64,000 nucleotides of DNA from Escherichia coli. GTDB lineage: Bacteria > Pseudomonadota > Gammaproteobacteria > Enterobacterales > Enterobacteriaceae. Made by a program: the position numbers. The stretch lies in assembly GCF_050920415.1 (NCBI RefSeq), contig NZ_CP169309.1, one strand, 5' to 3'. Positions 42,101 to 45,100 of the stretch are shown here, in pieces (position 1 is the stretch's first letter; each line of letters starts with the position of its first letter).

Positions 42101-45100
42101 CAGGTCTGTGGTGTGCAGAGGAACTCCTTCACGCTCTGCAAATCTGATAGCCTGCTGCGCTTCTGGCGCAATAGCACCACGAACGCCACGATAAGCAGCA
42201 CCTAATCCACGTCCGGCAGCGTTAATAGCACCGCCAGCCAGCACACCAACGCCTAAATCGGTGGCGAGTGCTTCCGCATCATCTTTCGCACTATTTGCAG
42301 CAAGTGATCCAACTGCGTTTTCTGCTAGAAGGCGAGTTGCTCCCTGAGCAATTCGACCTGCAAGTGTTGGTGCCTGTACCGCCGCTCTCTCAACGCCAGC
42401 AGGAGTGAGGTAAGGCAATGCTTCAGCAAATACCCTTCCCTCTGTCGTTTGTGGAGTCAGCGCACCTTGCTGAAGGCCAAAGTCCTGCTCTAATCCCTGC
42501 GTTGTTACTCGTGGCGCTGGTTGATATGTACCATAGCCAATACCGAGTTTACCGCCAGCCCAAGCCGCAGCGCTTGTTACAGCATCGGCAACTGATGCAG
42601 GTATGTTTGCCACGTTCACGCCAGCCTGCACCAGTCCGCGACCAGTTTCTTTCACGGCTTCACCAAGATCAGACATAAATCCAGTTTGCTGTGGTTGTTG
42701 CTGTGCTTCTGGTTGTTGTGTCTCCACTGGCTGCACAGATGGCAATGGATAGGCAGCATAGAAAGCTTGCTTAGCCTGCTCTGCATTTTCTCCGGCTTGC
42801 GGGGCCACGACTTCATTGAAGTATTGCTCCTGAGCCTGCGATTTTTGTTCTGGTGCTAACGCCTGATACTGTGGAGAGGCGATAACATCTTTCCATGCTT
42901 TAGCCATTAATCACCCCATAGTGAAGAAAAGTTACTGCTGGCTGCTGGCTGTGATACCTGTGCAGGTTGAGATTGCTGCCGCTGAGATTTACCAACATTA
43001 ACGTTATATTGTTGGTTGTAATTGTTGGTGTATTCCTGAATCTCACGAATCGACTGCTGCATAGCCTCCGGGCTTGAATAGTCAACCTGCGGCATCCCCT
43101 GAAAATACATCTTCGCTTCTGCAACGGTGTTAATACCACTGGCACCCATGTCCCTTGCTGCCGCCACACCCTGATTCTGCATTCTGCCCTGAATCCGTTG
43201 TGCTGAGTTATATAACTGGCGCTGCTCTTTTCCTGTTAATCTGCTGCGAACATCAGCACCAATTGCTGGATTACCTGCACCGCCTGTCATTCCTGTCATG
43301 AAATCGAGAGCAGAAGCGTCTGCATTTGCGATCGCGTCGATATCCTTCTTCATGGCATAGTTTTGTGCTGATGCAGACGATGTTGCAGGCGCAGCGATTG
43401 AACTGGCAGGGACACGAACCATATTCCCCTCGTTGTCGATGCCTTCGTAGAACGCATTAGCCCCAGCGCCATGAAGCTTCCCGCCTACCGTTACAGTTCT
43501 GCCATCTGATAACTGAACTGTACGCTCATCATTCCCAGCGATTCCTCTTGTTGACGCTCGCTGCATTGCCAAATCCTGACCTCGTCGCGCAGTAGAAGAA
43601 GATAAGTCCTGACCGCGCATCGTGATGTTCTGGCCTCGTGCTGTTAGCGCCTCGCCAGCCTGATTGCTGCGGATTGTCTCTGCAAGTTTTCCGCGATCAA
43701 TCTCACGACCAGCCATCTTGTCCTGAACATTGAAGTAATCAATTGGACCAAGAGCAGCCATCCCAAGGTGATCAACAAACTCACCAAATCCTGAAGGATT
43801 CTGCTGATACATCTGAGCAACGTTGTTAGGGTCAACACCTACGCGAGTCAGTTCCTTGGCGTTGTTTTGCAGCCATGATTGCATCGCTTCTGGAGACGAT
43901 GCCGCAAGGCGAGCGCCAGCCGCTAAGGTGCCGATAGAATTACGCTGGTCTTCATCAATGAATCCCATGCCTTTACGAACGGATTCAATCTGGTCTGGAT
44001 ATTGAGTAGCCAACTGACGCAAAGCACCGCGATCACCAGACGCATAAGCATTAGCGTATGCCTGCTGAAATTCTTTCTGCCGCTGAGCCTGCTTTTCCTG
44101 CTGAAACACCCCCGCAATACCTGAAAGGCCTTGCAAAGCAGTCAGCCCAACATTGTTAGCGCCTGAACGCTCAATATCATTGTTCTGCCTGATAAGCTGA
44201 AGCGTATTGCCGATGTCATTTACGCTCGGAGCGTTTGAGTTGACGCCGCCGATACCAGCCAACAATCCGCCGTTTGTTCCTTGCCAAGTAGCCATGATTA
44301 CCCCTTAAAACAACGAGCCAAGCAATCCGATACCAGCACCAATGCCAGCGCCCCAAGGCGTTGATGTTCCCAAAAGGCTGGCAAGACCTGCACCGGCAAT
44401 CGCACCAGACGTGCCACCGCTAATTGCAGTCTGAAGACTTGATGGTTTATTGGCATTAGCAGCGGCAAGTGCTGCGCTTTGCTGTGCAATGCTGCTCATG
44501 TTGTTGGCGTACGTCTGCCCGGCGTTTGCCTGACCTTGCAGCGCACCAAGCCCAACGTTTGCCAGATTGTTGTAATTGCTCATCTGGTTTGATAACCAAG
44601 ACTGACCGAGTGTAGGCGCGATTGTAGCCAGTTGATTGCTTGTGGCTGTCGAACCAAGTCCTCCCGTAGCCTCCGCAGCAGCAAGACTCTGGTAACGAGC
44701 CTGACCTGCAAGGTCTTTATACTGCTGAGAGTTGTAATACTGATTAAGTGCCTGCCCCTGACCTTCTAAACTGGAAAGGTTCTGAAGCTGGTTAACATAC
44801 TGCTCCGCAAGAGGCGTGAACGGAGCAAGGTTTTTCATGATCGTCTGCCACTGCTGATTTTGCAATCTGCAGCATACTTCTGAGCTTCTGCTGCATACTT
44901 TGCGCTTTTATCAGAGCTGCCACCTTTCCCGCCTTTTTCAGGGCAATAAGGTTCCTCGCCGCGCAGTTTTCTGCCCAGCTTAAATGCATATAACATGGCT
45001 ATCTCCCGTGATTCAGGAAGTCGATTAGTTCTTCGCGTGTGGCGCTGTAAAAAGTCACGTCATCCACGCCTTTGAAGTATTTCTTGATGGTTCCTACACG

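What the first reader, a model, noticed from the sequence alone, without database searches (positions are those of the whole stretch)
44305..44996. Ejection protein gp7 homolog interrupted by a 1-bp frameshift
The first 52 codons match the gp7 N-terminus, then the frame runs into a stop; the conserved remainder starts in another frame (MQNQQWQTIMKNL...). Comparison with the expected codons indicates one missing base around 44865-44870.
Basis: seen in the sequence. Interest (0 to 1): 0.4.

Follow-up and report, generated by a model that had tools for sequence, protein, structure and literature searches.

The report
Likely sequencing error in prophage gp7
The P22-type phage DNA-ejection gene gp7 really is split by one missing base in this sequence, but other assemblies of the same prophage have the base and an intact gene, so the break is most likely a sequencing or assembly error and of no biological interest.

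Summary
On the minus strand, 44305-44996 is a P22/Sf6-type gp7 (Pfam P22_gp7) lying between gp14 and gp20/gp16. One base is missing between 44864 and 44865. This leaves a 53-codon N-terminal ORF (45 native codons, not 52) and a 186-codon C-terminal ORF.

The break is very probably not biological.
- The same prophage, at the same lambda-attB site, occurs in independent NCBI assemblies. It is 99.96% identical there and carries an intact 230-aa gp7.
- Restoring the base gives exactly that protein (WP_000964882.1).
- None of 574 complete E. coli genomes with this segment has the deletion.
- The window differs from the sister copy by seven events in 21 kb. All are window-private, and four hit Dam GATC sites (p about 2e-7). 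They include two of the four other 1-bp frameshifts found in the prophage: portal, and terminase twice. The fourth, in lysozyme, lies outside that comparison and is also at a GATC.
- All changes shown to be window-private lie in 44623-56795. Both flanks match other assemblies perfectly.
- Short-read contigs of sister strains end at 44667 and at about 58650, which marks the stretch between as a repeat.

Best reading: long-read (nanopore-type) methylation-motif and short-run errors were left in a repeat that short reads could not polish. Interest is low.

The parts
44305..44996 (-). gp7 (P22 gene 7 / Sf6 gene 11) DNA-ejection protein homolog, split by a 1-base gap. It is 692 nt here and 693 nt in all relatives.
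44835..44996 (-). N-terminal ORF of 53 codons: 45 native gp7 codons (including the conserved OpdA cleavage context PE|KGGKGG), then 8 out-of-frame codons. Its TGA stop overlaps the ATG of Met54 (ATGA).
44305..44865 (-). C-terminal ORF of 186 codons with a TTG start at native Leu46. An ATG start at Met54 gives a 177-aa product.
44864..44865 (.). Site of the missing base. The plus strand reads GCA-ATCTGC, against GCAGATCTGC in sister assemblies, so the G (minus-strand C) of a Dam GATC site is missing.
44623..44623 (.). Second window-private change inside gp7: GATC>GATT on the plus strand. It is synonymous (Thr ACG>ACA), and four sister assemblies have C.
48892..48893 (.). Window-private double substitution in the coat gene at a GATC site (CGATC>GAATC).
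49558..49558 (.). Window-private substitution GATC>GATT in the coat gene (D81N).
51199..51199 (.). Window-private 1-base insertion (A>AA) that splits the portal gene into 586-codon and 163-codon ORFs.
53470..53470 (.). Window-private 1-base deletion (GG>G) in the large terminase gene.
53970..53970 (.). Window-private 1-base deletion (CC>C) in the large terminase gene.
56795..56796 (.). Window-private 1-base deletion that splits the lysozyme gene. GATC becomes GAT-, and 9 of 9 panel prophages plus GCA_000194575.2 have the C.
44623..56795 (.). The stretch that holds every change shown to be window-private. Flanks 32907-44622 and 58646-64000 are identical to other assemblies, and short-read contigs of sister strains end at 44667 and at 58646/58678.
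42907..44295 (-). gp20 ejection protein, intact at 462 aa. Its exact sequence was used to find sister assemblies.
40910..42907 (-). gp16 ejection protein, intact at 665 aa.
44999..45454 (-). gp14 (DUF2824), intact at 151 aa, immediately upstream of gp7.
37123..37137 (.). Prophage/chromosome junction at the lambda att core TTAGTATAAAAAAGC, between ybhB and ybhC. The prophage runs from 37138 to beyond 64000.
   Evidence: the core sequence is from my own knowledge of lambda attB

Best explanation
The gene is an ordinary, intact gp7 DNA-ejection protein gene of a P22/Sf6-like prophage integrated at lambda attB. The missing base is most probably an error of the deposited assembly, not a mutation in the bacterium. 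It is one of about eight to eleven private errors confined to a roughly 12-kb stretch of the prophage late region (44.6-56.8 kb). These errors are concentrated at the G and C positions of Dam-methylated GATC sites and at 1-2-base runs. That pattern is what residual nanopore-type consensus errors look like. The stretch matches the part of the prophage that short-read assemblers cannot join to its flanks in sister strains, meaning it is a repeat. Short-read polishing is unreliable in repeats, so long-read errors would survive there. Shown here: the deletion, its absence from sister copies, the GATC enrichment, and the spatial confinement. Inferred: the sequencing technology and the failure of polishing.
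For: (1) The same prophage at the same ybhB/bioA site in GCA_048027635.1, GCA_000194575.2, GCA_015518365.1 and GCA_045005245.1 is 99.96-99.99% identical to the window. gp7 is intact at 230 aa in the two of these whose contigs cover the site. (2) Adding back one C gives a protein identical to those copies and to WP_000964882.1. (3) None of 574 complete E. coli genomes holding this 80-nt segment matches it exactly. The junction is absent from IMG/VR, and the 53-aa product is absent from a collection of 15 billion proteins. (4) Against L025 there are only 7 events in 21.4 kb, all with the window as the odd one out. Four lie in GATC, and the binomial probability of at least 4 of 7 doing so is 2.4e-7. 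A fifth GATC hit splits the lysozyme gene. (5) There are zero indels and 2 mismatches in 37,137 bases of flanking chromosome against strain MFDS1022581. There are zero differences in 32907-44622 and in 58646-64000 against other assemblies. (6) Short-read contigs end at 44667 (two assemblies) and at 58646/58678 (two assemblies), bracketing the error stretch. (7) The lineage-private substitutions are about 70% synonymous with no nonsense codon, which indicates genes under selection until now. (8) Literature: nanopore assembly errors occur within GATC motifs (PMC12392509) and modification-induced read errors are documented (PMC11610603). Short-read polishers leave errors in repeats (Polypolish abstract, 10.1101/2021.10.14.464465).
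Against: No reads are available, so the sequencing platform and polishing history are inferred. About 160 other GATC sites in the window outside the stretch are error-free, so the explanation needs the polishing-failure step. Three of the indels (51199, 53470, 53970) are not at GATC. I could not show that this particular genome holds a second copy of the late module. The near-identical chromosome MFDS1022581 has no copy at or above 99% identity. Genuine gp7 knock-outs do occur in other prophages, so a real lesion is not implausible in principle.
Confidence: 0.87

Rival explanations
1. This is a genuine 1-bp deletion, and the prophage is a decaying, defective element. Its gp7, portal, terminase and lysozyme genes have each been knocked out by frameshifts. 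Without gp7, any particles made could not deliver DNA.
For: The deletion is in the sequence as given. Five late genes or sites are hit, as might be seen in a cryptic prophage. Independent natural gp7 knock-outs exist in other assemblies: amber codons 6, 39 and 49, an IS66 insertion, and a deletion.
Against: Sister copies of the same prophage, at least 99.96% identical, lack all of these lesions. Five frameshifts would have arisen alongside only 4-5 substitutions, four of them at GATC, whereas spontaneous indels are roughly ten times rarer than substitutions in E. coli (my own knowledge of mutation-accumulation studies). There is no known mutational process that deletes bases at Dam sites in only 12 kb of a prophage. 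There are no nonsense codons. The lesions coincide with a short-read assembly gap.
Confidence: 0.09
2. The culture was heterogeneous or held two diverged copies. The consensus across two similar prophage copies, or a mixed population, produced chimeric calls, so the indels are collapse or phasing artefacts rather than base-calling errors.
For: The stretch behaves as a repeat in sister short-read assemblies. The portal insertion CTCGAACGCC looks like both alleles of a natural G/A polymorphism (CTCAACGCC in E. coli W, CTCGACGCC in Dewey) written one after the other.
Against: It does not explain the strong GATC bias. Outside these few sites the window matches the sister copy exactly, with no mosaic of second-copy SNPs.
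Confidence: 0.03
3. This is programmed recoding: a -1 ribosomal frameshift, or termination-reinitiation at the ATGA overlap, restores gp7 function from the split gene.
For: The stop of the shifted N-terminal ORF overlaps the ATG of Met54 (ATGA), which could allow some reinitiation. P22 gp7 tolerates loss of its first 20 residues (PMC8402733).
Against: There is no X XXY YYZ slippery heptamer at GCA GAT TGC AAA ATC. The arrangement is unique to this window among 574 complete E. coli genomes that hold this segment, and all 123 phage records with a match either span one base more than the query or lack an exact match. A product starting at Met54 would lack 33 residues of the mature N-terminus, within the 21-154 region needed for procapsid binding.
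Confidence: 0.01

Closest known systems
P22 gp7 / Sf6 gp11 ejection (E-) protein, Pfam PF25688 P22_gp7; RefSeq WP_000964882.1 'DNA transfer protein'
   Same: There is a full-length profile match across the two pieces. The gene order is gp14-gp7-gp20-gp16. The OpdA cleavage context ...PE|KGGKGG is conserved. The repaired translation is 100% identical to WP_000964882.1.
   Different: As written in the window, the ORF is split after codon 45 by one missing base. Sister assemblies of the same prophage are not split.
Residual long-read (nanopore) consensus errors at methylation motifs, in repeats that short-read polishing cannot reach
   Same: The changes sit at the G or C of Dam GATC and in 1-2-base runs. 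They are private to one assembly and clustered in a stretch that is a repeat for short-read assemblers. Both flanks are perfect (PMC12392509, PMC11610603, 10.1101/2021.10.14.464465).
   Different: The platform and pipeline of this assembly are unknown to me. Several of the GATC errors are deletions, whereas the papers I read mostly describe substitutions.
Genuine gp7 pseudogenes in P22-like prophages of E. coli/Shigella
   Same: The gene and its N-terminal region are disrupted in the same place, leaving the same 177-aa C-terminal ORF.
   Different: Those lesions are amber codons, an IS66 insertion or a deletion in short-read assemblies, and some recur on several contigs. The window's lesion is a singleton frameshift at a GATC, and it is absent from its own sister copies.

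Membership tests
P22_gp7 ejection protein (PF25688) | Sequence match to the family profile over its full length | tested here: met
   The N-terminal piece covers profile positions 1-46 (86 bits) and the C-terminal piece covers 45-230 (341 bits), against a cut-off of 28. The repaired protein is identical to WP_000964882.1.
P22_gp7 ejection protein (PF25688) | Position in the late operon between gp14 and gp20/gp16 | tested here: met
   tblastn with E. coli W prophage proteins gives the order gp26, gp14, gp7, gp20, gp16.
P22_gp7 ejection protein (PF25688) | A single uninterrupted ORF of about 229-230 codons | tested here: not met
   The window splits it into 53-codon and 186-codon ORFs. The feature is met in sister assemblies of the same prophage, L025 and L026.
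P22_gp7 ejection protein (PF25688) | N-terminal processing after residue 20 (mature N-terminus KGGKG) and release from the virion during DNA delivery | not testable with these tools
   The sequence context ...EEPYCPE|KGGKGG is conserved. The biochemistry is known for P22 only (PMC8402733).
Programmed ribosomal frameshift site | Slippery heptamer at the shift site, and conservation of the two-frame arrangement in homologs | tested here: not met
   There is no slippery motif at the site. None of 574 complete E. coli genomes with this segment, and no IMG/VR contig, share the junction.
Real prophage pseudogene (inherited lesion) | The lesion is present in other sequenced copies of the same prophage lineage | tested here: not met
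   GCA_048027635.1 and GCA_000194575.2 carry the same prophage at the same site with the base present.
Real prophage pseudogene (inherited lesion) | The lesion is accompanied by signs of relaxed selection (excess non-synonymous or nonsense changes) | tested here: not met
   There are only 4 mismatches to the sister copy in 21 kb, all at or adjacent to GATC. Lineage-private substitutions are 52 synonymous, 22 non-synonymous and 0 nonsense, which is within the panel range.
Methylation-motif / short-run long-read assembly error | Changes private to one assembly and enriched at a known methylation motif | tested here: met
   Four of 7 events against L025 lie in GATC, p = 2.4e-7. A panel comparison also flagged the window as losing 5 of 26 conserved Dam/Dcm sites, against 2 of 203 in ten other prophages (Fisher p = 2e-4). 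At least one of those five, the portal CCWGG change, is shared with the sister copy and is natural.
Methylation-motif / short-run long-read assembly error | Errors confined to sequence that short reads cannot polish (a repeat) | tested here: inconclusive
   The errors span 44623-56795. Sister short-read contigs end at 44667 and at 58646/58678. The rest of this genome was not available to show a second copy.
Methylation-motif / short-run long-read assembly error | Read-level evidence (raw reads disagree with the consensus, or short reads show the base) | not testable with these tools
   No reads or assembly metadata are available.

The most novel reading that the evidence does not exclude
The changes are real, and some process in this strain damages or mis-repairs Dam GATC sites specifically within the late region of a resident P22-like prophage. 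It would delete or mutate the G or C of the motif and so silence the portal, terminase, gp7 and lysozyme genes together. That would amount to a host or prophage mechanism for targeted prophage inactivation.
Probability: 0.02. Interest if true: 0.65.

Novelty: not a real feature. Interest (0 to 1): 0.06.

Why it matters
It matters mainly for housekeeping. Taken at face value, the window would suggest a defective prophage with five broken late-gene sites. The evidence says instead that the prophage is probably intact and potentially inducible, and that the assembly has a badly polished 12-kb repeat. Annotators would otherwise record gp7, portal, terminase and lysozyme as pseudogenes. The case also gives a usable recipe for telling assembly errors from real pseudogenes without reads. 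First, find the same element in independent assemblies by exact look-up of a neighbouring protein. Then test whether the private differences pile up at methylation motifs and between short-read contig breaks.

Tried and rejected
- **Programmed frameshift.** Rejected: there is no slippery site and no conservation.
- **Junction search in IMG/VR.** A search for the exact deleted junction found nothing.
- **Exact look-up of the protein fragments.** The 53-aa and 186-aa products are absent from the collection. The 177-aa product is present, but only on contigs with other lesions: amber codons, an IS66 insertion and a deletion. This showed that real gp7 knock-outs exist, but none with this lesion.
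- **Panel of 19 related prophages.** It was used to count private substitutions against indels and synonymous against non-synonymous changes. It was suggestive only, because no panel member was closer than about 96.5%. The sister-assembly comparison superseded it.
- **Dcm (CCWGG) association.** Two apparent hits appeared in the panel test. The portal hit is shared with the sister copy and is therefore natural. The lysozyme hit is not a difference from L037 either. Only the Dam association stands.
- **Shared GAACG / CTCGAACGC context.** The three non-GATC indels share this context. I noted it but did not explain it and did not use it.
- **Further exact look-ups.** The window's coat protein and its 315-aa replication protein found nothing. 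For the coat this is expected if the window copy carries errors. The terS look-up returned only unrelated prophages because the protein is too common.

Full report
**What is in the sequence**

On the minus strand, window 44305-44996 carries two ORFs in different frames. One is 44835-44996 (53 codons, MLYAFKLGRKLRGEEPYCPEKGGKGGSSDKSAKYAAEAQKYAAD-CKISSGRRS*). The other is 44305-44865 (186 codons from a TTG, MQNQQWQTIMKNL...).

Pfam P22_gp7 (PF25688) matches the first ORF at profile positions 1-46 and the second at 45-230. tblastn with the proteins of the E. coli W P22-like prophage gives the canonical order gp26, gp14, gp7, gp20, gp16. gp7 is the only one of these five that changes frame.

A DNA alignment with E. 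coli EC3, Sf6 and phage Dewey is 99% identical per column and shows a single gap. GCAGATCTGC (EC3) reads GCAGAT-TGC in the window, so the missing base lies between window 44865 and 44864. Two corrections apply: 45 native codons precede the shift, not 52, and the intact homolog is 230 aa.

**Context**

- Window 1-37137 is E. coli chromosome (ybiB ... bioA, ybhB). It matches strain MFDS1022581 with 2 mismatches and no gaps.
- That strain has an empty site between ybhB and ybhC.
- The window diverges from it immediately after TTAGTATAAAAAAGC, the lambda att core (core sequence from my own knowledge).
- From 37138 onward the window is a P22/Sf6-like prophage. It runs through an O-antigen acyltransferase, tailspike, arc, gp16, gp20, gp7, gp14, needle, gp10, gp4, coat, scaffold, portal, terminase, lysis genes, Q and nin genes, and replication genes.

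**gp7 is not the only broken gene**

The same tblastn shows the portal in two frames, the large terminase in three and the lysozyme in two. Nucleotide alignments place 1-base indels at 51199 (+A), 53470 (-G), 53970 (-C) and 56795 (-C).

**Is the deletion seen anywhere else?**

- None of 574 complete E. coli genomes holding the 80-nt segment around the site matches it exactly.
- All full-length hits in phages and E. coli span one base more than the query.
- The junction is absent from IMG/VR.
- The 53-aa frameshift product is absent from the 15-billion-protein collection.
- The 177-aa product (ATG start at Met54) is present, but on contigs with other lesions: amber codons at positions 6, 39 or 49, an IS66 insertion, or a deletion.

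Real gp7 knock-outs therefore exist in nature, but none carries this lesion.

**Decisive comparison**

An exact look-up of the window's gp20 protein found the same prophage at the same ybhB/bioA site in four other NCBI assemblies.

Window 32907-54293 aligns to GCA_048027635.1 at 99.963%, with only 4 mismatches and 4 gaps. Where the other three assemblies overlap, they agree with it and not with the window. gp7 is an intact 230-aa gene in the two assemblies that cover the site. Adding one C to the window gives exactly that protein, which is WP_000964882.1.

The differences, all with the window as the odd one out, are:

| Window position | Change | Location |
|---|---|---|
| 44623 | GATC>GATT | gp7, synonymous |
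| 44864/5 | GATC>-ATC | gp7 frameshift |
| 48892-3 | CGATC>GAATC | coat |
| 49558 | GATC>GATT | coat |
| 51199 | +A | portal |
| 53470 | -G | large terminase |
| 53970 | -C | large terminase |

Four of the seven events hit GATC, a motif that covers 0.9% of positions. The probability of at least four hits by chance is 2.4e-7.

A look-up with the DnaB-like protein brought in the other half of the prophage. There the lysozyme deletion is again GATC>GAT- and private to the window. Window 58646-64000 is 100% identical to three further assemblies.

Every change shown to be window-private therefore lies in 44623-56795, between two perfectly matching flanks.

**Why that stretch?**

In sister short-read assemblies, contigs end at window 44667 (two assemblies) and at 58646 or 58678 (two assemblies). 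This means the sequence between those points is a repeat for short reads in this lineage.

Short-read polishers are known to leave long-read errors in repeats (Polypolish abstract). Nanopore assemblies are known to carry errors within GATC motifs and other methylated motifs (PMC12392509; PMC11610603).

The simplest reading is that the assembly kept long-read errors where polishing failed. The platform and pipeline are inferred, not shown.

**Against a real, decaying prophage**

- Five frameshifts would have arisen alongside only four or five substitutions, almost all at GATC, since this copy diverged from sister copies that are otherwise identical.
- No nonsense codon is present.
- The lineage's private substitutions are about 70% synonymous, within the range of 10 other prophages.
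- An earlier panel test also flagged the window. It had lost 5 of 26 conserved Dam/Dcm sites, against 2 of 203 in the panel. At least one of those five, the portal Dcm-site change, later proved to be natural variation shared with the sister copy.

**If the deletion were real**

gp7 is one of three ejection proteins required for DNA delivery. In P22 its first 20 residues are removed by OpdA and are dispensable, while residues 21-154 mediate incorporation into procapsids (PMC8402733).

A product restarting at Leu46 or Met54 would lack 25-33 residues of the mature N-terminus. The shifted ORF's TGA overlaps the Met54 ATG (ATGA), so some reinitiation is conceivable. The function of such a product is unknown.

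A programmed frameshift is excluded by the absence of a slippery site and of any conservation.

**Verdict**

The gene is an already known, ordinary gp7. The interruption is present in the window's letters but is very probably (about 0.87) an assembly error. A genuine singleton mutation remains possible (about 0.09). Interest is low. Reads or a PCR amplicon across 44.8-44.93 kb would settle the question.

Noticed in passing
window 50723-52889 (portal), 52890-54387 (terL), 56458-56933 (lysozyme): Four further 1-base frameshifts occur in the same prophage, at 51199 (+A), 53470 (-G), 53970 (-C) and 56795 (-C at a GATC). All are absent from sister assemblies, so they are the same kind of artefact as the gp7 gap.
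   Followed up: yes
window 44623, 48892-48893, 49558: Window-private substitutions sit exactly on Dam GATC sites (GATC>GATT, CGATC>GAATC, GATC>GATT). Two of them alter the coat protein (D81N, D303H), which explains why the window's coat protein is not on record anywhere.
   Followed up: yes
window 44667 and 58646/58678: Short-read contigs of four sister assemblies end at these points. The late module between them behaves as a repeat in this lineage, and it coincides with the error-bearing stretch.
   Followed up: partly
window 37123-37137: The P22-like prophage is integrated at the lambda attB core (TTAGTATAAAAAAGC) between ybhB and ybhC. The near-identical chromosome of strain MFDS1022581 has the empty site.
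   Followed up: partly
L008-L017 (Logan assemblies), gp7 N-terminal region: Independent natural knock-outs of gp7 occur in other E. coli/Shigella prophages: amber codons at positions 6, 39 and 49, an IS66 insertion, and a deletion fusing needle and gp7 sequence. All leave the same 177-aa C-terminal ORF. I did not test whether gp7 is hit more often than its neighbouring genes.
   Followed up: partly
window 15363 (clsB) and 25180: These are the only two chromosome differences from MFDS1022581. At 15363 the window has GATC and the other genome has GCTC, which may be a Dam-site error in that other assembly. At 25180 the window has T and the other genome has G, after a T run.
   Followed up: no
window 55469, 55877, 56499: There are three more differences from GCA_000194575.2: TT vs TTT (3 nt from a GATC), CCCC vs CCC, and A vs G. 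Which side is wrong is unknown. That older assembly has homopolymer errors of its own, at positions corresponding to window 46733 and 62774.
   Followed up: partly
window 51199, 53470, 53970: After the change, all three non-GATC indels read GAACG, and two of them read the same 9-mer, CTCGAACGC. This may be a sequence-context effect of the base-caller or a coincidence. It remains unexplained.
   Followed up: no
window 44835-44838 (minus strand): The frameshifted N-terminal ORF ends in a TGA that overlaps the ATG of native Met54 (ATGA). This is a classic coupling arrangement, created here by accident.
   Followed up: no
window ~48267: There is an in-frame 6-bp expansion of a TCTGGC repeat, relative to E. 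coli W and phage Dewey, in the small ORF between the coat gene and gp4. The sister assembly L025 shares it, so it is natural.
   Followed up: partly
window 37395-38522 and 38519-40486 (minus strand): An Acyl_transf_3 O-antigen acyltransferase gene overlaps the tailspike gene (Head_binding domain) by 4 bases at the prophage end next to attB. In the window they are 375 and 655 codons counted from the first possible start codon, and gene callers in sister assemblies give 374 and 639 aa.
   Followed up: no
L005 (E. coli no107, NZ_CP075374.1): The closest complete-genome relative of this prophage also has portal, terminase and Q annotated as frameshifted, with 7 private indels in the panel test. 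It is probably another under-polished assembly.
   Followed up: no
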